Shown in pieces: positions 33,149-63,675 of a DNA stretch of 64,000 nt. Within the stretch, counting starts at the first letter, position 1, and every line of letters starts with the position of its first letter. The DNA comes from Patescibacteria group bacterium (GTDB taxonomy: Bacteria; Patescibacteriota; Patescibacteriia; Buchananbacterales; UBA6539): assembly GCA_041649675.1 (NCBI GenBank), contig JBAZMQ010000002.1, positions 1,920-65,919 of the forward strand, in the 5' to 3' direction. Below the pieces are notes generated by a model, which had not been told where the DNA came from, searched no databases, and saw only the letters and a program-made list of their open reading frames with translations. A program made the position numbers and the translations under genes.

Positions 33149-33224
33149 TGGTCGGGGTAGTGGGATTTGAACCCACGGCCTCACGCACCCCATGCGTGCA
33201 CGCTACCAACTGCGCTATACCCCG
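33149..33224 (-). tRNA. tRNA-Pro (anticodon GGG)
   Basis: Manual fold of 76 nt: 7-bp acceptor stem with C1:G72 and A73 (the bacterial tRNA-Pro identity); D arm GCGC/GCGT; anticodon loop AT-GGG-GT; T arm GTGGG-TTCAAAT-CCCAC; CCA encoded. Confidence 0.8.
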
Positions 33225-33261
33225 ACCAAATTTTCTAAGATTTTTTATAGTACACCTTTAC

Positions 33262-33298
33262 CCGCCAAAGCTTTAGCGGAGCGAGAGCGTAGGCGGGC
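33262..33298. repeat. G+C-rich hairpin CCCGCC...AGCGAGAGCGTAGGCGGG (same family as 63676)
   Basis: Shares AGCGAGAGCGTAGGCGGG with the hairpin at 63676-63716; sits 5' of tRNA-Pro. Confidence 0.55.
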
Positions 33299-33607
33299 CC
33301 GTATATTCTATCTTATCGTTAAAAAAACAAACCTGCAAGATCTCAGGTTTCCAGAAAAATTACGGAACTTCACAAGACTGGTCAAAGGTTTTGGCTTAAG
33401 TTCAGCCGGCCGTGTCAGTAATCCGGGCGGGAAAGACATAAAAGAAATACATCTTATCGCCCAATTAACTGCTTTTGACCTTTTTGGGCTCGCAGATTAT
33501 AGCTTAAAGCTAAAATCAATTTAGATACCCTACTAAAATAGTTTGTCCCAAAACTTTAACCATCGGTGAAGTTCATTTTTATTTTAACATTTAACCAATT
33601 TTTGGTC

Positions 33608-33640
33608 AAAAAAAGAAGCCCAAAAGGAAACCTTTTGGGC
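33608..33640 (-). terminator. Intrinsic terminator after the DAHP synthase gene
   Basis: GCCCAAAAGG-AAA-CCTTTTGGGC flanked by A/T runs (bidirectional design). Confidence 0.7.
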
Positions 33641-33672
33641 TGATTAAAAACGACTGAATCAAAGATCAAGAT

Positions 33673-34794
33673 CTAGGCCTGTTGGCCTCTGTGAGCATTG
33701 TGCTCAGTAATCATGGTAATCAGTTCCGGCACTCGCTCAAGCGGGATTGCCTGATCCTTGTCGCACAAAGCCTCTGCCGGCTTAACGTGAGTTTCAACCA
33801 TGACCACGTCGGGCGAATGCTTTAAGCCGTTCTGTAAATCCTCAAAGACCAGGTCTACCCGACCGGCCATATGAGAAGGGTCAAGACAAACCGGTGCCCA
33901 AGAACGACTGTGCAGCTCGTTGATCCAGGAAAAATTCGGATAGAACCGATGCGGATCATGAGTGTCGACCTTTCTTAAACCGCGAACACAAAAGATGATC
34001 TTTTGGTTGCCCGAAGGAGCACTCTTCTCGGGATCCAATCTCCCATCCTCGTCCCAAAACATCGGACCGTACAAAACCCACCCGGCCAAATCCATGAGTT
34101 CGTCAATTCGCGTCATCGTGAGGCCATGCTTGATCATAACGACAAACTCTTTCTGAAGACCAAGAGCCTCCAGCAAGCAATAGTTCTGGGTTCGGGCTCC
34201 AACCCAAAGGACTATGTCGCCTCTGTAGCTTGTACGATCACGGCACCGGCGGACAATTTCGATATCCGGACTTTCCATCACCTCCATCCAAACTGATCTC
34301 ACGTCATTGGCCGCTGCCGCCCGTAAAAAGTTTTCCAAGCCGGCCTCACCAAAACCCCGAAAACCTTCGGCCTTAGAACGCGGCTTTTTCCAGCCACCCC
34401 GAAGATCTTGGACTCCCAATTTGACCAAACCTTGAACTGTTAAACCAATGTGCTTATCAATGGCACATTGACCGGCAACCAAACGACACGGCTGGCCGGG
34501 ACCAATTAATGACCCACCAACCTCAATGAGATGATGATCACCGCCATTACGCAAGGGACTGACCTGAGACGGCGAAACCCGCAGCACCCGTTCCACGCCA
34601 TCCATCTGGAAAACGTGTTCGGGAATACTGTTGGCCTGCGCCTTACCATCTTTGAGATGGATTAAAACGGCGATAAAATGGACACCAGCCTCAGCTTGAA
34701 CTTGTGGACTAAGGCCGTAGAGAATAGCCTTTTGAACAATGGCTTCGACCCGCGAATCAGTTGCCTGAACGCCGGTAATCATTTGGATAATCAT
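33673..34794 (-). CDS. 3-deoxy-7-phosphoheptulonate (DAHP) synthase, type I-beta with N-terminal regulatory domain
   Basis: RGGWKKPRS...F.G.G, LDPSHMAGR, VMVETH motifs. ~90-aa N-terminal extension before the TIM barrel. RBS GGAGGAAG. Confidence 0.75.
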   Translation of the reverse strand: MIIQMITGVQATDSRVEAIVQKAILYGLSPQVQAEAGVHFIAVLIHLKDGKAQANSIPEHVFQMDGVERVLRVSPSQVSPLRNGGDHHLIEVGGSLIGPGQPCRLVAGQCAIDKHIGLTVQGLVKLGVQDLRGGWKKPRSKAEGFRGFGEAGLENFLRAAAANDVRSVWMEVMESPDIEIVRRCRDRTSYRGDIVLWVGARTQNYCLLEALGLQKEFVVMIKHGLTMTRIDELMDLAGWVLYGPMFWDEDGRLDPEKSAPSGNQKIIFCVRGLRKVDTHDPHRFYPNFSWINELHSRSWAPVCLDPSHMAGRVDLVFEDLQNGLKHSPDVVMVETHVKPAEALCDKDQAIPLERVPELITMITEHNAHRGQQA

Positions 34795-34843
34795 GATACT
34801 CTTCCTCCATTACTTCGTTTCTGCCTTTTGTTTATTCTTCGCA

Positions 34844-36052
34844 CTAGTCCCTGTTCCGAATAATCGGGTAGGAACCAATCACAACAACATTAATCGCAAT
34901 CTTCTTTAGCGCCCAAATCGCTAAGCGTAGCCGCCGACTTTTTTTAATGTGTCCGGCCGCATCGATAAAGAAGACATAGTCACCGAGTTGCTTCTTGGCT
35001 GTCCAAGAAACAATCATTCCCAGGTTCACACCTAAAAGCCAAAAGGGCAATAGCGACCACATCAAACCGCCCGGCTTGTTTGGCGCTTTGAAAAAAATCG
35101 TGGTTTGATCATTACCATTGGGTTTAGGTGCATCTGCACCCAGAATTAAAAACCGTGTGACATTTGTACTGGCTGGCAAATCACCGATATCGGCTAGAAT
35201 GACTTCAAGTCTATCATACTCAGTTGCGGCTTCAGGTGAAGCAATGGCCGCAAGATCATTTTGATCAGATTCGGCAACCATTTTAGCCGCTGCCGCCGTA
35301 CTGGGTGCGTCAATAATTTCCCACTCAGGATGTTGAGCCAAAATTCTTTCGCACTGCCCGCGAGGCTGATGGTGAGTAACTACCGACTTGATATCTTCTA
35401 AGCACGCGCCGGCTTTGCCAAGCAACATGTGCTTAATTGGAATTTCAACTTGGCAAACAATTCGCAATCGTAAATTAGTCGCGGCATTGACAACAAAGAA
35501 ATTCACAGTCGGATAGACAAAAGCGCCGGCGGCATTTTCAAACGGTGCCACAATCATCTCGATTAAACCTTGACCAAAGGCTTCAAGCAATTCCGGAATC
35601 GATGTGTATAGCACCAATTCATAATCATTCGGCTCCAGACCTTTGTAAGCGAAATAGCGCCTAGCGGCACTAACTGAAAAGGTACCAGCCGGCCCTAAGC
35701 AACCAAGCTTTATTTTTTGCGTTTGCATTACTGTTTCTCCCGTAAATTCCTGTTTTGACTTATCGTCAACCGAAGGTAATGGTACTTCCGGCCTTAACTT
35801 ACAAACAATTCCTAAGACCACCTGGCCCCAAAAATCAAAGGGACACTCCCCTTTGCCGCGTGGATGAACATAGACGCAACCGACGTCAACGCAACCGCCC
35901 TTCAACCGAGACTTACTTCGTAACTGACAGTGAGTCAGGTAAGGTACCAAGCCAATCCATACAAATTCAATCACTTGTACGGTTTGACGAGGACAGACTA
36001 TCTCTTGCGTCGAGCCAGGCCTTATTTCGTCAATACTGACTACTCTTGCCAT
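34844..36052 (-). CDS. pheA: Prephenate dehydratase (PDT + ACT). The PDT domain begins at MQTQKIKLGCLGP (start 35728); the ORF is open for a further 108 Cys-rich codons upstream to an ATG at 36052
   Basis: PDT motifs LGPAGTFS and ACT-like C-terminus. A tiny uORF (MRFITT) with a strong SD ends 13 nt before 36052; GGGAG lies 9 nt before 35728. Start is uncertain. Confidence 0.75.
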   Translation of the reverse strand: MARVVSIDEIRPGSTQEIVCPRQTVQVIEFVWIGLVPYLTHCQLRSKSRLKGGCVDVGCVYVHPRGKGECPFDFWGQVVLGIVCKLRPEVPLPSVDDKSKQEFTGETVMQTQKIKLGCLGPAGTFSVSAARRYFAYKGLEPNDYELVLYTSIPELLEAFGQGLIEMIVAPFENAAGAFVYPTVNFFVVNAATNLRLRIVCQVEIPIKHMLLGKAGACLEDIKSVVTHHQPRGQCERILAQHPEWEIIDAPSTAAAAKMVAESDQNDLAAIASPEAATEYDRLEVILADIGDLPASTNVTRFLILGADAPKPNGNDQTTIFFKAPNKPGGLMWSLLPFWLLGVNLGMIVSWTAKKQLGDYVFFIDAAGHIKKSRRLRLAIWALKKIAINVVVIGSYPIIRNRD

Positions 36053-36154
36053 AACCGTATCCTTTTTTAAGTTGTAATGAACCTCATGAGCAATCCTCCT
36101 TACTACCCAATTTCTAACCCCAAAATAATCAGGGACAAATATTGAGTAATAAAC

Positions 36155-36185
36155 AAAAAAACTGACCCTTAATTGGTAATCAGTT
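36155..36185 (-). terminator. Attenuator terminator of the aromatic leader (ACUGAUU-loop-GGUCAGU + U7)
   Basis: Stem plus U7 ~50 nt after the leader-peptide stop. Its 5' arm can instead pair with GUCAGUUGG at the leader's end (antiterminator). Confidence 0.6.
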
Positions 36186-36240
36186 GATTGCTTGTTTTGA
36201 GTTTTTTGCCCTATTTTTTTGCTATACCCAAACCAACTGA

Positions 36241-36300
36241 CTACCGGTCAGTAAAATAGAAACCGAAATAATACCAGTTGTTGGTTTGCAATCTTGTCAT
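36241..36300 (-). CDS. Leader peptide MTRLQTNNWYYFGFYFTDR (aromatic-rich) for pheA-DAHPS
   Basis: 7 of 8 consecutive codons are Trp/Tyr/Phe. The stop codon sits in the loop of hairpin ACUGAC-CGGUA-GUCAGU (36236-36252). Confidence 0.65.
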   Translation of the reverse strand: MTRLQTNNWYYFGFYFTDR

Positions 36301-36311
36301 AGGATATTTGT

Positions 36312-36340
36312 AGATTAACGTAATTCTTCAAATTTGTCAA
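36312..36340 (-). promoter_or_regulatory. Promoter TTGACA-N17-TAATCT driving the aromatic leader (near-leaderless)
   Basis: Same architecture as the other four modules: -35 TTGACA, -10 TAAnnT-like, ~10 nt to the ATG. Confidence 0.5.
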
Positions 36341-36349
36341 ATATCCAAT

Positions 36350-36383
36350 AAAAAGAAGCCCTAAATCATTTGACTTAGGGCTT
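36350..36383 (-). terminator. Intrinsic terminator after proB
   Basis: AAGCCCTAA-N-TTAGGGCTT + T run; abuts the -35 of the next module. Confidence 0.65.
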
Positions 36384-37127
36384 TTGGGCTAGAAAAGTGG
36401 TTCCGGGAGTACGGCCAGGGCCAAGGATCTTAGTGATGACATTTGGCTTACTGCCTTTGGCCAGATGAACGGTAATACCGGCCCTGGTAGCTTTTTCAGC
36501 GGCGATAAGCTTACTACCCATACCATTACGGTTAGAAACTTTCACACCTTCCACGCCGGCTAAGGCCTTGATGGCATCGTCAATTACCGGAACAATCGAA
36601 ATTACTTTGAGCTTACGGTTCTGAAGTCCATCAACGTCGGAAAGTAAAATCAACTTACTGGCGCCAATACCAATGGCAACAATCGCGGCCAAAGCATCGT
36701 TATCTCCCTGATGCTCCATCGCCTTAATTTCCAAAGCGGAAACCGAATCATTCTCGTTAAGAACCGGAACAATTCCGATTTCCAGTTCCCGCCGAATTAA
36801 AGCAATTGTCTTTGGGTGTTTGAAGTCTTGATGTGTCCCCTGTATCTGACTGGCAATCAACCCCCGTTTGCGAAAAGCTTCAATCCAATAAGCCATCAGC
36901 TTTGGTTGGCCAACAGATGCTGCCACCTGTTTATCAATGATTTTTTCTCCGCCCGCGACACCATTACCACAGGCAACCGCGCCTGAAGTCACAATAACGG
37001 GCCAATAGCCTTGCTGACGCAAACTGGCAATCTGTCTGGCTAACGCCCTCAAAATTCTCCTTTTGATCTTGCCGTTTTCGTCCACCAACACATTGGTTCC
37101 AATTTTAATGACCACTATCTTTTCCAA
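36375..37127 (-). CDS. proB: Glutamate 5-kinase (no PUA domain); probable TTG start at 37127 after GGAGGA
   Basis: IVPVLNENDSVSALEIKAMEHQGDNDALAAIVAIGIGASKLILLSDVDGL matches the ProB core. The ORF-track extension to 37208 runs through the attenuator terminator. Confidence 0.75.
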   Translation of the reverse strand: MEKIVVIKIGTNVLVDENGKIKRRILRALARQIASLRQQGYWPVIVTSGAVACGNGVAGGEKIIDKQVAASVGQPKLMAYWIEAFRKRGLIASQIQGTHQDFKHPKTIALIRRELEIGIVPVLNENDSVSALEIKAMEHQGDNDALAAIVAIGIGASKLILLSDVDGLQNRKLKVISIVPVIDDAIKALAGVEGVKVSNRNGMGSKLIAAEKATRAGITVHLAKGSKPNVITKILGPGRTPGTTFLAQKP

Positions 37128-37156
37128 AAGAGCATCCTCCTTTCGTTTGGTTAAAC

Positions 37157-37181
37157 AAAAAACAGCCCGGAAGTTGGGGCT
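37157..37181 (-). terminator. Attenuator terminator of the proline leader (AGCCC-loop-GGGCU + U6)
   Basis: The loop and 5' arm CCCCAACUUCC are perfectly complementary (11 nt) to GGAAGUUGGGG at 37212-37221, just after the leader stop (antiterminator). Confidence 0.6.
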
Positions 37182-37220
37182 ATTCTCTATCTTTTTATTA
37201 CAGCGCAAAAACCCAACTTC

Positions 37221-37271
37221 CTAAGGCAAAGTTGGTGGGACTGGTAAAGTTGAGTTAAAGCGTTTGTTCAT
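37221..37271 (-). CDS. Leader peptide MNKRFNSTLPVPPTLP (Pro-rich) for proB
   Basis: 4 Pro in the last 8 codons; the ATG is 6 nt after the -10. Confidence 0.6.
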   Translation of the reverse strand: MNKRFNSTLPVPPTLP

Positions 37272-37277
37272 ATCAAT

Positions 37278-37305
37278 ATCTTAGCAGATTTAAAAAATTT
37301 GTCAA
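37278..37305 (-). promoter_or_regulatory. Promoter TTGACA-N16-TAAGAT for the proline leader
   Basis: Sequence match; the -35 directly abuts the upstream terminator. Confidence 0.5.
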
Positions 37306-37335
37306 AAAGAAAAGGATTAAGCAAAGCTTAATCCT
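37306..37335 (-). terminator. Intrinsic terminator after leuA-like gene 1
   Basis: AGGATTAAGC-AAA-GCTTAATCCT + U-rich run. Confidence 0.65.
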
Positions 37336-37360
37336 TAAAATACAAAGAACACGAACAATC

Positions 37361-38929
37361 TTACTCGGCTTTAACCGTTGGGATCGGCGCATGCGCCAAA
37401 TGGTTTAGAGCGGCTACCATGGCCTGAACGCAAGCCTCAATAATGTCAGTATTAGCACCGCGACCAAAAGCAACCTGGCCATCATGAGCGATTTTGATCA
37501 TCGCCAACCCCAAAGCTTCCACGCCACCAGTGCTTTTACCAACATCAAAGTCTTCCAAAACAACTTCACCGGGCCAGAGATCACCGCGGACTAATGCTGT
37601 CTTAACCGCCTGCCAAACCGATGAGACTGGTCCGTTACCGCTACCACTGGCTTCATATTCAAAACCGTTTCTGCCTAGTAGCACTGTTACCGACCGTACA
37701 TTATCCAACCGATGATACTGGACTCGCTTGACTGTCAACAAATGCTGACTCTGAGCCGATGTGGCCACACAAGCTTCCTGCATCAACATATGTAAGTCAG
37801 CATTGTGAACTAAGGCCTTGGTTTCGGCCAACTGCAGAAAAAGCCGGTAAACTTCGTTTAACAAGTCGCCTTCAGCCTGATAACCAAGTTGATCCAAACG
37901 AGTCTGCAAGCCTTTGCGACCGGAACTGGTGCTAAGCGGAAAAGACTCACCAACCCAACCAACGCTTTGAGGCGGCATGATCTCGTAGGTATTGGCATGC
38001 TTGATCATACCATCCTGGTGAATACCCGAAGAATGGGCAAAAACGTTGCCACCAACCACCGGGGTTGTGGGTGGAATCGGCCGTTTAATAATGGCTGCCA
38101 ACAAGCGTGCCGCTGGCCCAAACTGGGTGCTGTCAATTGGACAATCCAACCGATAATACTCAGCCTGGAGCTGCAACGCCTTTACGAATGGCTCAAAACC
38201 AGTATTACCCGCTCGTTCACCAATACCGCAAATCGTGGTCTCGGCTTGCCGGGCACCATTCATGACCGCTGCCAACGAATTGGCAACAGCTAACGCTAAA
38301 TCATTATGGCAGTGACAAGATAGGATAATCCTCTTTTCTACCACTTCACGTAGCGCTGCGATTTGGGCAAACATCGAACCATACTGTTGAGGTTGAGCAA
38401 ACCCAACGGTATCAGGCAAGTTGATTATACCGGCGCCAGCCTCAATTACTGCTAAAACGATTTCCTTCAAGAAACCAATATCACTGCGGCTGGCGTCTTC
38501 AGCGGAAAACTGCACCTGACCAACATGGGCAAAGCTGCAGGCAAACTTGACCGCCTCAACTGCCCTAGTGATTACCTCGGCCGGCTTCATCTTCAGCTTG
38601 AATTCCATATGCTGCGGACTGGTAGCAATGAAGGTGTGGATGCGACCCGGCTGAATAGCATTCTGCAGCGCTTCAGCCGCACGCGCAATATCTTTTTCAT
38701 TGGCCCGGGCTAATGCTGAAATGCGAGCGCCCTGAACCTGGCCAGCCGCCAGACGCACAGCAGCAAAATCAACGTCCGAAGCAATCGGAAACCCGGCTTC
38801 AATAGTGCAAACTCCCATCTTGGCGAGTTGTATTGCCAAAGTGAGCCGGTCTTCGGCTGACTGGCTGCAACCCGGTGATTGGGCTCCATCTCTACAAGTC
38901 GTATCATGAATCTCAATAACCTTAACCAT
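37361..38929 (-). CDS. leuA: 2-isopropylmalate synthase (LeuA family, with C-terminal regulatory/dimerisation domain)
   Basis: N-terminus TTCRDGAQSPG; HxH metal site SCHCHNDLALAVANSLAAV; LeuA_dimer-like C-terminus; RBS AAGGAG. Confidence 0.8.
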   Translation of the reverse strand: MVKVIEIHDTTCRDGAQSPGCSQSAEDRLTLAIQLAKMGVCTIEAGFPIASDVDFAAVRLAAGQVQGARISALARANEKDIARAAEALQNAIQPGRIHTFIATSPQHMEFKLKMKPAEVITRAVEAVKFACSFAHVGQVQFSAEDASRSDIGFLKEIVLAVIEAGAGIINLPDTVGFAQPQQYGSMFAQIAALREVVEKRIILSCHCHNDLALAVANSLAAVMNGARQAETTICGIGERAGNTGFEPFVKALQLQAEYYRLDCPIDSTQFGPAARLLAAIIKRPIPPTTPVVGGNVFAHSSGIHQDGMIKHANTYEIMPPQSVGWVGESFPLSTSSGRKGLQTRLDQLGYQAEGDLLNEVYRLFLQLAETKALVHNADLHMLMQEACVATSAQSQHLLTVKRVQYHRLDNVRSVTVLLGRNGFEYEASGSGNGPVSSVWQAVKTALVRGDLWPGEVVLEDFDVGKSTGGVEALGLAMIKIAHDGQVAFGRGANTDIIEACVQAMVAALNHLAHAPIPTVKAE

Positions 38930-39043
38930 GGCGTTTACTCCTTAATGTTTCTGCCTTTTACCTCTGCCAACCGTGGCAAAAGTTTTCTTAACTAACCTAA
39001 ATTGGAAAGGACATGTCTATCCCACAAACAGCGCGAGATAAAC

Positions 39044-39068
39044 AAAAAAGCCTTCCTGAGTGGAAGAC
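39044..39068 (-). terminator. Attenuator terminator of the leucine leader (GUCUUCC-ACUCA-GGAAGGC + U6)
   Basis: Its 5' arm CUUCCAC is complementary to GGGUGGAAGG (39113-39122) inside the leader-ORF tail (antiterminator). Confidence 0.6.
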
Positions 39069-39097
39069 TGACTGGTATTTATCTAATGCTATTTTAG

Positions 39098-39184
39098 CTA
39101 GACACTAGTAAACCTTCCACCCTGGGGCTGGCTTAACAACAACAAACCTAGCAAGAGATTAGATTGGGGAAGGTTATATTTCAT
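39098..39184 (-). CDS. Leader peptide MKYNLPQSNLLLGLLLLSQPQGGRFTSV (Leu-rich) for leuA
   Basis: 7 Leu in 8 consecutive codons. The start of the ORF (ACCUUCCCC) can pair with GGGUGGAAGGU (1:2 pairing). Confidence 0.65.
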   Translation of the reverse strand: MKYNLPQSNLLLGLLLLSQPQGGRFTSV

Positions 39185-39194
39185 AGATAATAAT

Positions 39195-39223
39195 AACTTA
39201 CACTACCGGTTTAATTTTGTCAA
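39195..39223 (-). promoter_or_regulatory. Promoter TTGACA-N17-TAAGTT for the leucine leader
   Basis: Sequence match; 10 nt to the ATG. Confidence 0.5.
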
Positions 39224-39240
39224 TAATTATAGCTATTTAG

Positions 39241-39276
39241 AAAAAACCTATAGCTTCGCTTGGGCAAAGCTATAGG
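39241..39276 (-). terminator. Intrinsic terminator after the 90-aa gene
   Basis: CCTATAGCTT-N10-AAGCTATAGG + U6. Confidence 0.65.
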
Positions 39277-39305
39277 TTAGCAATTAAGGTACAATTCCTC
39301 TTTGG

Positions 39306-39578
39306 TTAGGCTAGGCCGTAGGACTCTAACACCATCTGCCGGTTAATCATCGATGGACCAACAACCGAACCGGTAAAAATCAAAACCTCTGGTCCTTGCA
39401 ATAAGGCCACAACGCGGCAAGAACCGCCAACGCCTCGGTTAAACTCAAGACAATGCTGGTCAGTAGAGCCGTTAACCCTTAACCCACCGCCTGGCCTAAC
39501 TTCAATTCTGACTCCTTCATAGATAGTAGAACTGCCCGGCCCTACCGGCACTCGTTTGGTTGGTAATGGCTTTTCCAT
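39306..39578 (-). CDS. Hypothetical 90-aa Gly-rich protein under the Val-rich leader
   Basis: Strong RBS AAGGAG; no recognisable domain; high G+C like its neighbours. Confidence 0.5.
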   Translation of the reverse strand: MEKPLPTKRVPVGPGSSTIYEGVRIEVRPGGGLRVNGSTDQHCLEFNRGVGGSCRVVALLQGPEVLIFTGSVVGPSMINRQMVLESYGLA

Positions 39579-39626
39579 AGTAATACTCCTTAGTTTGTTC
39601 TGCCTTGTTAATTTGCGGAAATAAAC

Positions 39627-39650
39627 AAAAAACTAGTCCTTTTAGACTAG
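39627..39650 (-). terminator. Attenuator terminator of the valine leader (CUAGUC-UAAAAG-GACUAG + U6)
   Basis: Regions 1-4 are CUAGUC/GACUAG/CUAGUC/GACUAG. The 1:2 hairpin (39694-39710) lies within the leader-ORF tail. Confidence 0.6.
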
Positions 39651-39677
39651 CTGGCTGTTTTGCTTTCTTGCTACTGC

Positions 39678-39755
39678 TTAAATACCAAACCACCTAGTCT
39701 TATGACTAGTTACGACTACGACAACGCTCAAGATTTGGCAAGCAATAGATTTCAT
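39678..39755 (-). CDS. Leader peptide MKSIACQILSVVVVVTSHKTRWFGI (Val-rich)
   Basis: Five consecutive Val codons (GTT GTC GTA GTC GTA). Confidence 0.6.
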   Translation of the reverse strand: MKSIACQILSVVVVVTSHKTRWFGI

Positions 39756-39761
39756 AAACTC

Positions 39762-39791
39762 AGCTTAGCAAATTCCAAAAAGACTTGTCAA
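39762..39791 (-). promoter_or_regulatory. Promoter TTGACA-N18-TAAGCT for the valine leader
   Basis: Sequence match; 6 nt to the ATG. Confidence 0.45.
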
Positions 39792-39837
39792 ATATTAGCA
39801 ATTCGTATGTGCGTATTCGTAACGCTATTTGCATACT

Positions 39838-39873
39838 AAAAAAAGACCGACTACTGAGAAACTCAATAGTCGG
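39838..39873 (-). terminator. Intrinsic terminator after LeuA/CimA-like gene 2
   Basis: GACCGACTA-N-TAGTCGGT + U6. Confidence 0.65.
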
Positions 39874-39890
39874 TTTGAAATCAAAGGACA

Positions 39891-41438
39891 TTACTGGTGG
39901 TGGTTTTGGTTGCAGATGTTAATGGCTGCTTCAGCCGCATAAATTGCCGCCATCACCTGGTCAGTATCCAAGCCAACGGTTTGGAATTCGCCCTCACCAT
40001 TTGGCCCTTTCCAGCGGATATTGGCTTGCACAATAGCCGCATAAGTTCCGCCAGGCGGAATCTTGAGATCGTAGTCAATTAGCTTGGGTACTGAAATCTT
40101 ATGCTGCTTGGCCCACTTGACCAAGGCGTTCATAAAAGCATCAAATCCGCCATCACCATGAGCGGAAATCTCATATTGCCGCTTATAATAAACGATAGTA
40201 GCTGCAGCGGTTGCCCGGCGACCAATCGTTGACTGGGTCGTGGCATGCTCGACTCGAAAAACAATCACGTCAGGCCGATTCAAGACTTCAGCAATAATGT
40301 AAGGCAGGTCAGCAATGGTTACCGGCTTACCTTCATCGCCCAGTTTGGTGACTCTAGTAGAGACAGCATTGATTTCTTCGTCATTCAGAGTCAGGCCAAA
40401 ACGGGCAGCGTTACTGCGAATACTAGCCTTACCGGAAAGTTTGCCAAGAGAATGCTCAACTCTAATGCCTAAACGGCCAGCCGTCAGACATGGATGAACA
40501 TAGAGCCCGGCCTTAAGATCACCATCAACATGGACACCGGCGGTGGTAACGAAAACATTGCCAGCGATTGGTTTGCTCGGCGACACTCGTCGACCAGACA
40601 TCATGGCAACCACTTGGCTAGCCGGGCGAAGGTGAGCTTCTTGCACTCCGGTGCAAAAACCGCGCAGATGATCGGTAATACCCACTACCACCTCATCCAA
40701 AGCCGCGTTGCCGGCTCTTTCGCCTAAGCCATTAACGGTTAAGTGAACACCAGAGATAGCCCCAGTTTTAACCGCCGCCAACGAATTGGCAACAGCCAAA
40801 CCGTAGTCATTGTGACCGTGAAAGTCATAGCGAAGCTTAGGCTGCCAGCGACTAGTTTGAGTGATAAAGTCAGCAACCTGCCAAGGACTTAAAACGCCCA
40901 TGGTGTCACAAAGCATTGCTCGGCTAATCGGCAACTTAGCCAATCCGGCCAAAAGTTTTTTAACATACTGAGGCGAATTAAGCATGCCTTGAGACCAATC
41001 CTCCAGATACACATTAACCATCAAGCCGTGAGAAATAGCATACTTAACCGTTATTTCAATGTCTGCCAGATGCTGCTCTAAACTCTTGCGTAACTGGCCT
41101 TCGCAGTGCTTAAGCGAACCTTTGCACAGCAAGTTCATCACTTTGCCGCCACCACTCCTGATCCAGTCAACCGACTTTTTGCCGTCAACAAAACCAAGCA
41201 CTTCAATTCGATCGGCAAAGCCATGTTTGGTGGCCCACTCCATAACCGTAGCCAGCATCTGCTTTTCACCTTCAGAAACCAAAGCCGATGTCACTTCAAT
41301 ACGATCAACCATTAGTTGGGTTAAGGCATTGATGACATAAGCCAATTTCTGCTTGGGCCGAAAACTGACACCCGGCGTTTGTTCTCCATCACGCAAAGTG
41401 ACGTCAGCAACTTCAATTTGTTTCTCTTTCCTTGACAT
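39891..41438 (-). CDS. LeuA-family synthase paralog, likely (R)-citramalate synthase CimA (isoleucine branch) given its Ile-rich leader
   Basis: N-terminus DVTLRDGEQTPG; HGHNDYGLAVANSLAAV; LeuA-type C-terminal domain. The CimA-versus-IPMS assignment is inferred from the leader. Confidence 0.7.
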   Translation of the reverse strand: MSRKEKQIEVADVTLRDGEQTPGVSFRPKQKLAYVINALTQLMVDRIEVTSALVSEGEKQMLATVMEWATKHGFADRIEVLGFVDGKKSVDWIRSGGGKVMNLLCKGSLKHCEGQLRKSLEQHLADIEITVKYAISHGLMVNVYLEDWSQGMLNSPQYVKKLLAGLAKLPISRAMLCDTMGVLSPWQVADFITQTSRWQPKLRYDFHGHNDYGLAVANSLAAVKTGAISGVHLTVNGLGERAGNAALDEVVVGITDHLRGFCTGVQEAHLRPASQVVAMMSGRRVSPSKPIAGNVFVTTAGVHVDGDLKAGLYVHPCLTAGRLGIRVEHSLGKLSGKASIRSNAARFGLTLNDEEINAVSTRVTKLGDEGKPVTIADLPYIIAEVLNRPDVIVFRVEHATTQSTIGRRATAAATIVYYKRQYEISAHGDGGFDAFMNALVKWAKQHKISVPKLIDYDLKIPPGGTYAAIVQANIRWKGPNGEGEFQTVGLDTDQVMAAIYAAEAAINICNQNHHQ

Positions 41439-41545
41439 AGACTGCTATCCTCCATGACGCCCTAGCGTCTTGTTTCTGCCTTTTTCCAAATCAATGAATT
41501 GCTAAAGAGCGTCTTACTAAAACTACTGGTTCAAGCAAGACAATC

Positions 41546-41574
41546 AAAAAAGCCTTCCGAGTGGAAGGCTTTTT
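41546..41574 (-). terminator. Attenuator terminator of the isoleucine leader (GCCUUCC-ACUC-GGAAGGC + U6)
   Basis: Perfect 7-bp stem. The antiterminator partner GGGUGGAAGC is at 41608-41617, and the 5' end of the leader ORF CUUUCCACC gives 1:2 pairing. Confidence 0.65.
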
Positions 41575-41592
41575 GTATCGTCTAACTTGATG

Positions 41593-41673
41593 TTATCTCA
41601 TAAGAAAGCTTCCACCCTGAGGCTGGCTAATAATGATAATGCTGATAATAATGTTTTTTCTGGTGGAAAGCAT
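41593..41673 (-). CDS. Leader peptide MLSTRKNIIISIIIISQPQGGSFLMR (Ile-rich)
   Basis: 7 Ile in 8 consecutive codons. The tail SQPQGG is shared with the Leu leader. Confidence 0.65.
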   Translation of the reverse strand: MLSTRKNIIISIIIISQPQGGSFLMR

Positions 41674-41687
41674 AATTGTATTTTTCT

Positions 41688-41716
41688 ATCTTAAAGGATT
41701 ACCCAAAAAAAGTCAA
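41688..41716 (-). promoter_or_regulatory. Promoter TTGACT-N17-TAAGAT for the isoleucine leader
   Basis: Sequence match; ~14 nt to the ATG. Confidence 0.5.
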
Positions 41717-41942
41717 GCCAAACAAAAGATTTATCTATCTTTAACAAAAATTAACCTCCAAGCTATATTTGCGCTGCCCAGGCAAAAACATAGCCTAAAA
41801 TTGAGAGGGTTAACATAATAGCAAAAATGGATAAACCCAAAAACGTACCGGCTTCAGTCAAACTTTTTAACCGCGGCTTTGGCTTACAGCGATAATTGTG
41901 GCTTAAATATGGCATTAATAAAAAAAATAAAAACCCAATTAA

Positions 41943-42119
41943 TTAGCTGATATGATCATCAACGAATTTAATCAGGTCTTTTTCTAAAACACGATAAGTT
42001 TTGTGGCCAATTTTGGCTGCTCGTAATTTTTTCGAACTAACCCAACGGTAAACCGTCTTTTGGCTTACCTTCATAATCTTGGCGACTTCCTCAAGCGTTA
42101 AAATTCCGTAATTAGACAC
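41943..42119 (-). CDS. Small excisionase-family helix-turn-helix DNA-binding protein (58 aa, GTG start)
   Basis: LTLEEVAKIMKVSQKTVYRWVSSKKLRAAKIGHKTYRVLEKDLIKFVDD matches the excisionase/MerR-type HTH pattern. Not in the ORF track because it is under 60 aa. Confidence 0.55.
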   Translation of the reverse strand: MSNYGILTLEEVAKIMKVSQKTVYRWVSSKKLRAAKIGHKTYRVLEKDLIKFVDDHIS

Positions 42120-63366: not shown

Positions 63367-63600
63367 AAACAAAAATCTCCCTTTTCGAGGGAGCGGTTAG
63401 ATCATCCATTTTAAAAACGGACGGCCACCGACTCTTAATCTCGAAGAGTTTAGTGAATTAATTAAGCTTTGATTTTAGCGACCTGACTTAGTTGAGTGCA
63501 GCATCACCCCTCGATAACTCGGGGTAATTTTTCGTTGCACTCAAAATCACAGTTGCGGACCAGTGGAGGGTTTACACCTCACTTCGTAAAACTAAAGCTT
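63367..63600 (-). promoter_or_regulatory. Cobalamin riboswitch (candidate) with terminator/RBS-sequestering hairpin CUCCCU-CGAAA-AGGGAG + U5 just before the start codon
   Basis: Core GAAGUGAGGUGUAAACCCUCCACUGGUCCGCAACUGUGA (revcomp of 63547-63585) follows the B12-element consensus ...GGUGnAAAnCC...GCnGnCCCGCnACUGUnA. Confidence 0.55.
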
Positions 63601-63675
63601 TTTGTCAACGCTATCGTATAGGCTAATTAGAATATTAGAACTTTTTAATTACCCATATCGCAATAGCACTTCATC

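What the first reader, a model, noticed from the sequence alone, without database searches (positions are those of the whole stretch)
39044..41716. Leu and Ile attenuators are paralogous copies retargeted by swapping the codon run
The two leaders share the tail SQPQGG(R/S)F. They share the antiterminator segment CAGGGUGGAAG. Their terminators are near-identical, GCCUUCC-ACUC(A)-GGAAGGC. Both also have a 1:2 pairing between the very 5' end of the ORF and GGGUGGAAG. Only the run differs: CTC TTG CTA GGT TTG TTG TTG TTA versus ATT ATT ATC AGC ATT ATC ATT ATT. The downstream enzymes are paralogous LeuA-family synthases. This looks like duplication of a whole sensor-enzyme unit followed by re-specification of the sensed amino acid.
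Basis: seen in the sequence. Interest (0 to 1): 0.6.

Follow-up and report, generated by a model that had tools for sequence, protein, structure and literature searches.

The report
Codon-swapped Leu/Ile attenuator family in Patescibacteria
Two short sensor RNAs ahead of a leucine-pathway and an isoleucine-pathway enzyme in a tiny uncultured bacterium are related copies differing mainly in which amino-acid codons they carry; they belong to an undescribed family and to a row of five such sensors.

Summary
On the minus strand, two leader ORFs (MKYNLPQSNLLLGLLLLSQPQGGRFTSV*, MLSTRKNIIISIIIISQPQGGSFLMR*) share CCAGCC-N4-GGTGGAAG and a CTTCCAC…GGAAGGC-U6 terminator. Both fold into 1:2, 2:3 and 3:4 alternatives typical of ribosome-mediated attenuation.

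They belong to one family. I found about 30 copies, in Patescibacteria (CPR) MAGs and unlabelled metagenome contigs, falling into a conserved Ile class and a conserved Leu class. A covariance model built only from foreign Ile leaders finds the window's Leu leader (E 3e-6) and nine other Leu-class leaders. One Ile leader carries a Leu-class spacer. The shared "SQPxGG" tail is imposed by the RNA, because that segment is complementary to the whole terminator.

The "whole sensor-enzyme unit duplicated" reading fails. The two synthases are 27% identical. Each leader is closer to its counterparts in other contigs than to its neighbour. The same leaders precede non-orthologous synthases or unrelated small proteins elsewhere. 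The Ile-controlled enzyme is a Leptospira-type citramalate synthase (pocket L81/L104/Y144). The Leu-controlled one is an isopropylmalate synthase.

The pair is part of a GC-rich island with five tandem attenuators: Ile, Val, Leu, Pro and aromatic. No Rfam family or paper describes them. This is a new member of a known kind, in an unusual host.

The parts
41688..41716 (-). Sigma-70-like promoter of the Ile unit (TTGACT-17-TAAGAT), ending 14 nt before the leader ATG. No Shine-Dalgarno sequence is visible.
   Evidence: consensus scan only; sequence.
41593..41673 (-). Ile leader ORF MLSTRKNIIISIIIISQPQGGSFLMR*. The Ile codon run is at 41629-41652.
   Evidence: Same-class ORFs occur in other contigs.
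41662..41671 (-). Region 1 of the Ile attenuator (GCUUUCCACC, codons 1-4). It pairs with region 2.
   Evidence: the 1:2 helix covaries.
41605..41626 (-). Region 2, the antiterminator strand of the Ile attenuator (CCAGCCUCAGGGUGGAAGCUUU). It is translated as QPQGGSF.
41546..41569 (-). Intrinsic terminator of the Ile attenuator (GCCUUCC-ACUC-GGAAGGC-U6).
39891..41438 (-). Citramalate-synthase-like gene (515 aa, Leptospira CimA type) with a LeuA allosteric domain.
   Evidence: best family NF042433, 548 bits, below its 950 cutoff; L81/L104/Y144 and catalytic residues retained.
39678..39755 (-). Val leader ORF MKSIACQILSVVVVVTSHKTRWFGI*. Its own TTGACA/TAAGCT promoter is at 39762-39791. A 1:2-type hairpin is at 39694-39709.
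   Evidence: (z = -3.7). The class also occurs in L003, L097, L105, L110 and L118.
39627..39650 (-). Terminator of the Val attenuator (CUAGUC-UAAAAG-GACUAG-U6).
39306..39578 (-). 90-aa ORF of unknown function controlled by the Val leader.
   Evidence: no family; only 6 clusters in the database; the three that carry a source name are Patescibacteria; pLDDT 88.8, beta-rich; no significant structural match.
39195..39223 (-). Promoter-like site of the Leu unit (TTGACA-17-TAAGTT), ending 10 nt before the leader ATG.
   Evidence: Read. Not listed by the scan.
39098..39184 (-). Leu leader ORF MKYNLPQSNLLLGLLLLSQPQGGRFTSV*. The Leu run is at 39134-39157 and region 1 (AACCUUCCCC) at 39166-39175.
39104..39131 (-). 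Region 2, the antiterminator strand of the Leu attenuator (CCAGCCCCAGGGUGGAAGGUUUACUAGU).
39044..39068 (-). Intrinsic terminator of the Leu attenuator (GUCUUCC-ACUCA-GGAAGGC-U6).
37361..38929 (-). 2-isopropylmalate synthase (522 aa, bacterial leuA type).
   Evidence: (NF002086, 545 bits, above its 532 cutoff).
37221..37271 (-). Pro leader ORF MNKRFNSTLPVPPTLP*, probably leaderless. Region 1 is at 37229-37239, region 2 at 37212-37221 and the terminator at 37157-37181.
   Evidence: (z = -3.2). Conserved in L003 (MFKRNNPTLPVPPSLP*).
36375..37127 (-). Glutamate-5-kinase-like gene (kinase domain only, TTG start).
   Evidence: (TIGR01027, 179 bits, just below its 186 cutoff).
36241..36300 (-). Aromatic leader ORF MTRLQTNNWYYFGFYFTDR*. 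The terminator is at 36155-36184.
   Evidence: (z = -2.5). Identical peptide in L110; the class also occurs in L003, L103 and L095.
34844..36052 (-). 402-aa ORF. It combines a Cys-rich 108-aa N-terminal part, homologous to a separate 114-aa ORF in L110, with prephenate dehydratase (probable internal ATG at 35728).
33673..34794 (-). Divergent DAHP-synthase-like gene, followed by a terminator at 33617-33641.
   Evidence: (146 bits, cutoff 335).
33149..33224 (-). tRNA-Pro(GGG) bordering the GC-rich island.
   Evidence: GC is 0.466 in the island against 0.37-0.39 in the flanks.

Best explanation
The Leu and Ile leaders are two members of one family of ribosome-mediated (leader-peptide) transcription attenuators. 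The family has not been described, and every named source that carries it is Patescibacteria.

Anatomy. Each unit has its own promoter and a very short 5' UTR without a Shine-Dalgarno sequence. It carries a 26-28-codon ORF and three competing RNA pairings:
- Region 1 is ORF codons 2-5.
- Region 2 is CCAGCC-N3-GGGUGGAAG plus its 3' flank.
- The terminator (regions 3 and 4) is CUUCCAC...GGAAGGC-U6.
- The eight-codon run (LLLGLLLL or IIISIIII) lies in the loop between regions 1 and 2.

Proposed mechanism (inferred, not shown):
- Without translation, 1:2 forms and the terminator stops transcription.
- With plentiful charged tRNA, the ribosome runs to the stop codon, which always ends 23 nt after the start of the region-2 core. 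It occludes region 2, so the terminator forms.
- When tRNA-Leu or tRNA-Ile charging is low, the ribosome stalls in the run. It holds region 1 apart from region 2, and region 2 pairs across the whole terminator. Transcription then reads into leuA or cimA.

Evolution. The two classes descend from a common leader, or have exchanged modules, and differ in the sensed codon run. That split is old and family-wide. It is not a duplication of leader plus enzyme in this genome. The leaders behave as portable cassettes placed in front of non-orthologous effectors.

Context. In this genome the pair belongs to an array of five such sensors (Ile, Val, Leu, Pro, aromatic) on a GC-rich island.
For: Anatomy and significance:
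- All 22 aligned leaders plus 7 variants show a 1:2 helix, a 2:3 duplex (-25 to -36 kcal/mol) and a weaker terminator (-8 to -14 kcal/mol in 28 of 29; -21.8 for the Uhrbacteria L011 variant).

Covariation:
- On the model-derived alignment of 34 matches, the 1:2 helix plus terminator is 92.2% paired, against 79.9% in shuffles.
- 24 of 27 pairs show changes on both sides. The covariation score is 0.442 against 0.220 (0 of 500 shuffles reach it), and slid controls reach at most 0.134.
- Positions just 3' of GGUGGAAG show C-G, U-A, G-C and A-U with region 1.
- Cognate region 1:region 2 duplexes average -15.4 kcal/mol against -12.8 +/- 0.37 for permuted partners (0 of 10000).
- Region 2 stays complementary to terminators of different sequence, as in L110 and L108 (GUCCGCC..GGCGGAC) and in Uhrbacteria.

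One family:
- The Ile-only model R1, built without window sequences, scores the window Ile leader at 131 bits and the window Leu leader at 38.5 bits (E 3e-6). It finds nine other Leu-class leaders at E <= 5.5e-5.
- Hybrids and a shared insertion link the classes.

Specificity matches the cargo:
- Ile leaders precede citramalate-synthase-type proteins of two clades. Leu leaders precede IPMS of three clades.
- The window CimA keeps L81/L104/Y144 and its catalytic residues.

Not a whole-unit duplication.

Host: the window's 90-aa ORF is an NCBI protein of a 'Patescibacteria group bacterium'. The same contig is present in an ENA assembly. The closest CimA loci are Patescibacteria MAGs.
Against: - No experiment has been done. 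Promoters, transcription starts and translation of the SD-less leader ORFs are inferred from consensus only.
- The core of the 2:3 antiterminator is almost invariant. The formal test shows complementarity (82.5% paired against at most 55% when slid) but no covariation above shuffles.
- Most family members were collected with a pattern that fixes CCAGCC, GGTGGAAG and CTTCCAC. Conservation of those blocks is therefore partly ascertainment.
- Alignment A8 is fitted to the model's structure. Relatedness of the sequences inflates the shuffle statistics.
- Between the two classes, similarity is confined to mutually complementary structural blocks (spacer identity 36-38%). Convergence on one terminator/antiterminator design cannot be fully excluded.
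- The ribosome-footprint geometry is an argument, not a measurement.
Confidence: 0.8

Rival explanations
1. One reading: one leader-plus-synthase unit was duplicated as a block in this lineage, and the copy was re-specified from Leu to Ile or the reverse.
For: - The two units lie 2.5 kb apart on the same strand.
- They share leader blocks and also a 17-nt motif upstream of the ribosome-binding site.
- Both enzymes are LeuA-family.
Against: - The enzymes are 27% identical and belong to different named clades.
- Each leader has closer same-class relatives in other contigs: 96% and 79%, against 65% between the two.
- Both classes already co-occur in at least 10 other contigs.
- The same leaders precede other synthase clades or non-enzymes.
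Confidence: 0.03
2. Convergence. The Leu and Ile leaders are unrelated attenuators that arrived independently at the same terminator/antiterminator motif, for example because that hairpin suits the host RNA polymerase.
For: - Between-class similarity is limited to the self-complementary set GGUGGAAG / CUUCCAC / GGAAGG plus CCAGCC.
- The spacers are at chance-level identity.
Against: - The two classes have the same ORF length.
- The interruption falls at the same place in the run (position 4 of 8).
- The reading frame over region 2 is the same.
- The distance from region 2 to the stop codon is the same, 23 nt.
- An Ile-only covariance model hits Leu leaders full-length.
- L117 is a hybrid, and an identical 22-nt insertion occurs in an Ile and a Leu leader.
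- The Val, Pro and aromatic leaders of the same island use different hairpin sequences. The host therefore does not impose this motif.
Confidence: 0.1
3. Recent exchange within the genome. Part of the similarity of the two window leaders comes from gene conversion between them. This would act on top of old common ancestry and is not exclusive of the best explanation.
For: - Leu_window differs from its near-identical counterpart Leu_L110 at only 6 positions in the 3' part.
- Three of those positions match Ile_window: the CAG codon, and U instead of G in the U-tract. These states are rare in both classes.
- The Leu leader of L003 likewise has an Ile-type U-tract and downstream GAUUGU.
Against: - Only three sites support it.
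- Selection for pairing could produce the same states.
- L078 and L110 show no such sharing within the genome.
Confidence: 0.15
4. These are not attenuators. The short ORFs are untranslated or encode small hydrophobic peptides, and the hairpins are ordinary terminators of upstream genes or targets of a protein or tRNA (T-box-like) regulator.
For: - There is no Shine-Dalgarno sequence before the leader ORFs.
- No Rfam leader family reaches its threshold.
Against: - Each upstream gene has its own separate terminator, followed by a promoter.
- The codon runs match the pathway of the downstream gene in five units and across many contigs.
- ORF frame, length and stop position are conserved.
- Covariation supports 1:2 and 3:4.
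- There is no T-box or other riboswitch hit.
Confidence: 0.03

Closest known systems
Classical enterobacterial leader-peptide attenuators (leu, ilvGMEDA/ilvBN, thr, his, pheA, trp; Rfam Leu_leader, Thr_leader, Phe_leader and others). The mechanism is as summarised in PMC1183508.
   Same: - A short ORF carries a run of codons for the amino acid made by the downstream genes.
- The RNA has mutually exclusive 1:2, 2:3 and 3:4 pairings.
- An intrinsic terminator precedes the structural gene.
- The default state is OFF, and read-through happens when the ribosome stalls.
   Different: - No sequence or structure match. The best Rfam hit is Phe_leader at 34.8 bits against a gathering score of 55.
- Region 1 lies at the extreme 5' end of the ORF, so the regulatory codons sit in the loop of the 1:2 helix rather than inside region 1.
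- The 5' UTR is very short or absent and has no Shine-Dalgarno sequence.
- Each sensor controls a single first-step gene rather than a pathway operon.
- The host is a Patescibacteria MAG.
Leu/phe leader motif of Lactococcus lactis (RF01743; listed in Weinberg et al. 2010, PMC2864571). That it carries Leu or Phe codon runs is from my own knowledge of the Rfam entry.
   Same: One RNA scaffold is used with different codon runs for different amino acids.
   Different: - It comes from a different lineage and has a different sequence. There is no hit in the Rfam scans.
- Here the pair is Leu/Ile. It is documented with a hybrid, and the cargo enzymes are non-orthologous.
Attenuators and leader peptides predicted outside Proteobacteria by comparative genomics (Actinobacteria: trp, ilvB, LEU element; Seliverstov et al. 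2005, PMC1262725). Also the leucine-rich attenuator peptide of the S. aureus ilv-leu operon (PMC5794164; title and abstract only).
   Same: Comparative-genomics evidence for amino-acid-specific leader peptides with terminators upstream of branched-chain amino-acid genes.
   Different: - Actinobacterial leuA uses a pseudoknot 'LEU element', not a Leu-codon leader (abstract).
- None of these reports concerns Patescibacteria.
- None describes an array of five specificities.
Leptospira interrogans citramalate synthase (LiCMS, PDB 3BLE; regulatory domain 3F6G).
   Same: - The window's Ile-controlled enzyme aligns over residues 1-319 at E 2.5e-95.
- It keeps R16, D17, E146, H207 and H209, and the pocket residues L81/L104/Y144.
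- Its C-terminal domain matches the LiCMS regulatory domain (E 5.6e-21).
   Different: - It scores 548 bits against NCBIfam's 950-bit cutoff for the CimA equivalog, so it is a distant relative.
- The role of the three pocket residues is recalled from Ma et al. 2008, and that paper could not be read here.
- No leuBCD was identified among the neighbouring genes that were family-scanned.

Membership tests
Ribosome-mediated (leader-peptide) transcription attenuator | A short translatable ORF lies between the promoter and the structural gene. | tested here: inconclusive
   ORFs of 26 and 28 codons with ATG starts are conserved in frame and length across about 30 loci. No Shine-Dalgarno sequence is visible, and the promoters end 7-15 nt before the ATG. 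Translation is therefore inferred, possibly from leaderless mRNAs.
Ribosome-mediated (leader-peptide) transcription attenuator | The ORF carries a run of codons for the amino acid whose pathway is controlled. | tested here: met
   The Leu leader has 7 Leu in 8 codons before an IPMS, and the Ile leader has 7 Ile in 8 codons before a citramalate synthase. The same pairing holds in other contigs even with non-orthologous enzymes.
Ribosome-mediated (leader-peptide) transcription attenuator | An intrinsic terminator lies between the leader ORF and the gene. | tested here: met
   GC-rich hairpins followed by U6 at 41546-41569 and 39044-39068. The terminator helix covaries (helix 4: 10 of 12 pairs change on both sides).
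Ribosome-mediated (leader-peptide) transcription attenuator | An antiterminator (2:3) is mutually exclusive with the terminator, and an anti-antiterminator (1:2) is mutually exclusive with that. | tested here: met
   1:2 is supported by covariation. 2:3 is supported by conserved complementarity (82.5% paired against at most 55% when slid) and by energy (-25 to -36 kcal/mol). It has no covariation because its core is invariant.
Ribosome-mediated (leader-peptide) transcription attenuator | Read-through responds to the charging level of the cognate tRNA. | not testable with these tools
   This needs a reporter or an in vitro coupled transcription-translation assay.
Rfam leader families (Leu_leader, Phe_leader, Thr_leader, His_leader, Trp_leader, leu-phe_leader) | A covariance-model score at or above the family's gathering threshold. 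| tested here: not met
   No leader family passes at gathering level. In the permissive scan the best hits are Phe_leader at 34.8 bits (threshold 55) on the Ile leader and Thr_leader at 23.4 bits (threshold 55) on the Pro leader.
Citramalate synthase, Leptospira CimA type (NCBIfam NF042433) | An equivalog score above the cutoff. | tested here: not met
   548 bits against a 950-bit cutoff. It is nevertheless the best family by a wide margin, the next being 252 bits.
Citramalate synthase, Leptospira CimA type (NCBIfam NF042433) | The pyruvate-specific pocket (L81, L104, Y144 of LiCMS) and the catalytic and metal-binding residues. | tested here: met
   L81/L104/Y144, R16, D17, E146, H207 and H209 are all conserved. 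The window's LeuA has A/F/S at the pocket positions, like Neisseria IPMS.
2-isopropylmalate synthase (NCBIfam NF002086, bacterial LeuA) | An equivalog score above the cutoff, with HMGL-like, HCS_D2 and LeuA_dimer domains. | tested here: met
   545 bits, above the 532 cutoff, and all three Pfam domains are present. It has an unusual TTCRDGAQ in place of TTLRDGEQ.

The most novel reading that the evidence does not exclude
The island may be a starvation regulon of a reduced, host-dependent bacterium, not a set of biosynthetic operons.

What is observed:
- Five tRNA-charging sensors (Ile, Val, Leu, Pro, aromatic) each switch on an orphan committed-step enzyme of a kind that is classically feedback-regulated: citramalate synthase, IPMS, glutamate 5-kinase, and prephenate dehydratase with DAHP synthase.
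- In related contigs the same sensors control stand-alone LeuA allosteric domains, unknown small proteins such as the 90-aa ORF, and genes lying just upstream of ABC-2 transporters.
- None of the family-scanned neighbouring genes in any locus inspected belongs to the rest of these pathways.

The reading:
- The products would not complete a pathway in the cell itself.
- They would instead supply committed intermediates to the host, or otherwise manipulate it, so that the host overproduces the amino acid the symbiont lacks.
- The leaders would act as portable cassettes behind which effectors are exchanged.
Probability: 0.12. Interest if true: 0.9.

Novelty: new member of a known kind. Interest (0 to 1): 0.6.

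Why it matters
- Leader-peptide attenuation is a textbook mechanism. I found no record of it in Patescibacteria/CPR in the Rfam scans or in the full-text searches. Few regulatory RNAs are known in that group.
- This family gives a clean natural example of a regulatory cassette whose ligand specificity is set by a replaceable codon run. Both classes are conserved side by side, a natural hybrid exists, and the cargo genes have been swapped. The proposed retargeting can be tested directly by exchanging eight codons.
- It gives functional labels for free. An Ile leader marks a citramalate synthase and a Leu leader marks an IPMS, across five LeuA-family clades.
- It raises a real biological question. 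Why would a bacterium of a group generally held to lack amino-acid biosynthesis (my own knowledge of the CPR literature) carry five starvation sensors in front of first-step enzymes only?

Tried and rejected
- **Rfam, gathering and permissive scans.** No leader family matched. The only hits were sub-threshold Phe_leader and Thr_leader.
- **Literature searches.** Nothing was found on attenuators or IPMS/CimA in CPR. Ma et al. 2008 on LiCMS specificity is not held, so the residue roles rest on memory.
- **Are the small proteins after Ile leaders in L078, L093, L109 and L118 stand-alone LeuA allosteric domains?** Pfam found nothing, jackhmmer did not link them, and hhalign gave probability 0.7% and E 0.083. 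The idea is not supported. L091 does carry two stand-alone LeuA_dimer proteins after its Ile leader, and L050 carries one after a Leu-type leader.
- **Formal covariation test of the antiterminator core.** It was uninformative because the core hardly varies.
- **Viral contigs scan with the leader pattern.** The single hit is a chance match inside high-GC coding sequence.
- **Is the aromatic-rich mini-ORF at 33402-33452 a decayed copy of the aromatic leader?** No alignable similarity was found.
- **Direct repeats or att-like sites flanking the island.** None convincing was found.
- **Do non-CPR relatives of this CimA carry the same leader?** No. Only a Victivallales locus (L005) has an Ile-run leader, and it has an unrelated sequence.

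Full report
**Checking the observation**

Everything lies on the minus strand.
- The Leu leader ORF (39184..39098) reads MKYNLPQSNLLLGLLLLSQPQGGRFTSV*.
- The Ile leader ORF (41673..41593) reads MLSTRKNIIISIIIISQPQGGSFLMR*.
- CAGGGTGGAAG occurs in the 64 kb window only at these two places.
- The repeat finder independently reports three shared blocks. One covers region 2 (24 nt, 92%). One covers the terminators (24 nt, 88%). One lies just upstream of the two synthase ribosome-binding sites (17 nt, 94%).
- The local alignment score of the two leaders is 62, against 15.7 +/- 2.4 in 2000 shuffles.

The 5' arm of the Leu terminator is GUCUUCC, not GCCUUCC. Also, more than the codon run differs. The N-terminal codons and the roughly 45-nt spacer are unrelated, with 36% identity in the spacer.

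**What surrounds the pair**

The pair sits in an island of about 8.1 kb (33617-41716) with GC 0.466, against 0.37-0.39 in the flanks. The island is bordered by tRNA-Pro(GGG) on one side and a small HTH_17 gene on the other.

Reading the intergenic regions and a mechanical leader finder show five tandem units. Each has a gene-end terminator, a TTGACA-type promoter-like site, a short ORF rich in one amino acid, alternative hairpins and a U-tract terminator (z-scores -2.2 to -4.1).

| Sensor | Leader run | Controlled gene(s) |
|---|---|---|
| Ile | IIISIIII | citramalate-synthase-like gene |
| Val | SVVVVV | 90-aa ORF of unknown function (inside the finding's coordinates) |
| Leu | LLLGLLLL | leuA |
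| Pro | LPVPPTLP | glutamate-5-kinase-like gene |
| Aromatic | WYYFGFYF | Cys-rich domain fused to prephenate dehydratase, then a DAHP-synthase-like gene |

None of the ten called genes between the PfkB kinase gene and the island, nor the four after it, is a later-step enzyme of these pathways.

The host is a Patescibacteria MAG. The 90-aa ORF is an NCBI protein of a 'Patescibacteria group bacterium'. The same contig, with both junctions of the island, exists in an ENA assembly.

**Relatives of the leaders**

A genome scan with the CimA protein found its closest relatives in Patescibacteria MAGs (L003 62%, L048 51%, Uhrbacteria 45-46%). All of them carry an Ile-run leader upstream. L003 has the same island order, with Ile, Val, Leu, Pro and aromatic leaders.

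A metagenome scan for CCAGCC-N4-GGTGGAAG-N30-60-CTTCCAC returned 52 loci, and about half of them are true leaders. They fall into two conserved classes.
- The Ile class reads MT[SF]..IIIxIII(I)SQPxGGSLSxx*. Its spacer contains AAGnnAGACGAU, and UUUUUUGAUUGUC follows the terminator.
- The Leu class reads MKSF..QS LLLxLLL(L)(S)QPxGGRFT[SR]V*. Its spacer is UUUACUAGUGUnUAGCUAAA...UUAGAUAAAUACCAGUCAG, and CUGUUUUGUUUA follows the terminator.

Both classes occur together in at least ten other contigs.

**Structure**

Every one of 22 aligned leaders and 7 variants shows three alternatives.
- A 1:2 helix forms between ORF codons 2-5 and GGGUGGAAG plus its 3' flank. The codon run lies in the loop.
- A long 2:3 duplex forms, in which CCAGCC-N3-GGGUGGAAG and its flank pair across the whole terminator hairpin. 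Its energy is -25 to -36 kcal/mol.
- The terminator itself is much weaker, at -8 to -14 kcal/mol in 28 of the 29. The exception is the Uhrbacteria L011 variant at -21.8, against -36.1 for its 2:3 duplex.

This explains the shared peptide tail. SQPxGG is simply the translation of the strand that is complementary to the terminator.

Covariation evidence:
- The first two positions after GGUGGAAG pair with region 1 as C-G, U-A, G-C or A-U in different leaders.
- Cognate region-1/region-2 duplexes are 2.6 kcal/mol better than permuted ones (0 of 10000 permutations).
- On the model-derived alignment, the 1:2 helix plus terminator is 92.2% paired. 24 of 27 pairs show double changes, and the covariation score is 0.442 against 0.220 in shuffles and at most 0.134 when slid.
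- Terminators of different sequence (L110, L108, Uhrbacteria) remain complementary to region 2.

There are caveats. That alignment is fitted to the model, and the sequences are related. The invariant antiterminator core shows complementarity (82.5% against at most 55% when slid) but no covariation.

**Mechanism (inferred)**

- Without translation, 1:2 and then 3:4 form, and transcription stops.
- A ribosome that runs to the stop codon occludes region 2, and termination follows. The stop codon always ends 23 nt after the start of the region-2 core.
- A ribosome stalled in the run sits in the loop of 1:2 and keeps region 1 away. It leaves the region-2 core free, since the core lies at least 12 nt beyond the last run codon. 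Region 2 then captures the terminator, and transcription reads into the synthase gene.

The promoters end 7-15 nt before each ATG and no Shine-Dalgarno sequence is present. Translation is therefore probably from very short or leaderless 5' ends. This step is the least certain.

**Are the two leaders related?**

Yes, most likely.
- A covariance model built from nine Ile leaders of other contigs, with no window sequence and no Leu leader, finds the window's Ile leader at 131 bits. It finds the window's Leu leader full-length at 38.5 bits (E 3e-6 in the window) and nine other Leu-class leaders at E <= 5.5e-5.
- The Val leader is the next hit but is not significant (E 0.41).
- Both classes share ORF length, the interruption at position 4 of the run, the reading frame over region 2 and the stop position.
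- The L117 Ile leader has a Leu-class spacer, 67% identical to Leu_window against 38% to Ile_window.
- An Ile leader (L091) and a Leu leader (L003) share an identical 22-nt insertion.

Convergence is a weak rival. The Val, Pro and aromatic leaders of the same island use unrelated hairpins, so the host does not impose this motif.

**Was a whole unit duplicated?**

No.
- The two synthases are 27% identical.
- One is a bacterial LeuA that passes NCBIfam's equivalog cutoff. The other is closest to Leptospira CimA.
- Each window leader is nearer to same-class leaders elsewhere (Leu 96% to L110, Ile 79% to L078) than to its neighbour (65%).
- Ile leaders precede two non-orthologous citramalate-synthase clades, the Leptospira type and the TIGR00977 type. 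Leu leaders precede three IPMS clades: leuA_bact, leuA_yeast/PRK03739 and LeuA2.
- In other contigs the same leaders precede stand-alone LeuA allosteric domains or small proteins without any family.
- In the closest island (L110), the four shared leaders are 84-92% identical in nucleotides. CimA, LeuA and DAHP synthase are only 24-27% identical in protein, PheA is 38% and the 90-aa ORF is 57%.

The leaders therefore behave as cassettes behind which the cargo has been exchanged. Three of the six differences between Leu_window and Leu_L110 match Ile_window. This hints at some exchange within the genome, but the evidence is thin.

Aligned to LiCMS (3BLE), the Ile-controlled enzyme keeps R16, D17, E146, H207 and H209, and also L81/L104/Y144. 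The Leu-controlled enzyme has A/F/S at those three positions, like Neisseria IPMS (3RMJ). The TIGR00977-type enzymes behind Ile leaders have T/F/D.

That L81/L104/Y144 form the pyruvate methyl pocket is recalled from Ma et al. 2008. The paper could not be read here.

**Comparison with what is known**

The mechanism is classical leader-peptide attenuation (PMC1183508). The precedent for one scaffold carrying different codon runs is the Lactococcus Leu/phe leader (RF01743, listed in PMC2864571). Surveys outside Proteobacteria exist, for example for Actinobacteria (PMC1262725).

None of the Rfam leader families reaches threshold on these leaders. No paper in the library links attenuators or these synthases to Patescibacteria. 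The element is therefore a new family of a known kind.

What is unusual is the host, the array of five specificities, the ribosome-in-the-loop layout, the SD-less starts, and cargo that consists of first-step enzymes or unknown small proteins only.

**Open points**

- Whether the genome encodes the rest of the pathways could not be checked with these tools.
- The function of the Val-controlled 90-aa protein remains unknown. It has only six clusters among 5.8 billion, a confident beta-rich model and no structural match.

Noticed in passing
window 39306-39755 (-): A Val-codon leader (MKSIACQILSVVVVVTSHKTRWFGI*), with its own promoter and terminator, controls a 90-aa ORF. The ORF has no Pfam or NCBIfam family. 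It has only 6 clusters in the 5.8-billion-protein database, and the three that carry a source name are Patescibacteria. Its AF2 model is confident (pLDDT 88.8) and it has no PDB fold match. The ORF follows the Val-class leader in L003, L105, L110 and L118 as well.
   Followed up: yes
window 33673-37305 (-): There are two more attenuator units. A Pro leader (MNKRFNSTLPVPPTLP*, apparently leaderless) precedes a glutamate-5-kinase-like gene. An aromatic leader (MTRLQTNNWYYFGFYFTDR*) precedes prephenate dehydratase and a DAHP-synthase-like gene. The Pro and aromatic leaders are conserved in L003, and the aromatic leader also in L110.
   Followed up: partly
window 38946-38956, 39595-39605, 41471-41481, 34816-34826 (-); L110, four sites: The motif AAGGCAGAA(A/C) lies 3-20 nt upstream of the Shine-Dalgarno sequence of island genes. 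In the window these are cimA, the 90-aa ORF, leuA and the DAHP synthase gene. Four island genes of L110 have it too, but more distant islands do not. Its function is unknown; it could be a translational enhancer, a processing site or a binding site.
   Followed up: partly
window 33149-42116: The five-attenuator region is a GC-rich island (0.466 against about 0.37-0.39 in the flanks). It lies between tRNA-Pro(GGG) and a small HTH_17 (excisionase-like) gene. No integrase and no convincing flanking direct repeats were found.
   Followed up: partly
window 37361-38929, 33673-34794, 36375-37127, 34844-35728 (-): The island's enzymes are divergent. LeuA has TTCRDGAQ instead of the usual TTLRDGEQ. The DAHP synthase scores 146 bits (cutoff 335), ProB 179 (cutoff 186) and PheA 195 (cutoff 219). 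L110's DAHP synthase is canonical at 423 bits.
   Followed up: no
window 35729-36052 (-); L110 3220-3564 (-): The first 108 residues of the 402-aa 'PheA' ORF form a Cys-rich module (CP..Q...CGGC.Y..PR.KGECPF). It is homologous (34%, E 2e-13) to a separate 114-aa ORF that follows the aromatic leader in L110. It has no family assignment.
   Followed up: partly
L091 2726-4131; L050 14474-15238; L086 586-1263: Stand-alone LeuA allosteric (LeuA_dimer) domain proteins, without a catalytic domain, lie directly behind an Ile leader in L091 and a Leu-type leader in L050. L086 carries a similar stand-alone protein upstream of its Leu leader. In L078, L093/L103, L109 and L118 the Ile leader instead precedes a 130-157-aa protein family with no detectable homology.
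   Followed up: partly
L117 10236-10374 (-); L091 2503-2659 and L003 4625-4797: There are natural chimeras. The L117 Ile leader carries a Leu-class spacer. The L091 Ile leader and the L003 Leu leader share an identical 22-nt insertion (UUCGACUGCGCUCAGUGCAGGC, read as ..STALSAG..).
   Followed up: partly
L078, L105, L120 (downstream of Leu leaders); L003 8695-10252; L048 14603-16425: ABC-2-type transporter gene pairs (ATPase plus permease) recur inside or next to these islands. In three contigs they follow a small protein directly behind the Leu leader.
   Followed up: no
L077, L084, L107, L113, L127, L128: There is a variant Ile-type leader (MVHFFTNSIMSIIISQP*) whose stop codon comes immediately after CCAGCC. 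Its terminator is CUUCCACAGGCUGG-U6. It is present in six contigs in front of an uncharacterised 248-aa ORF.
   Followed up: no
window 63422-63613 (-): An AdoCbl (cobalamin) riboswitch lies above the Rfam gathering score (56.2 bits), upstream of a 609-aa ORF.
   Followed up: no
window 33402-33452 (-): An aromatic-rich mini-ORF (MYFFYVFPARITDTAG*), followed by a terminator-like hairpin, lies between the island and tRNA-Pro. It does not align with the aromatic leader, so it may be a chance ORF.
   Followed up: yes
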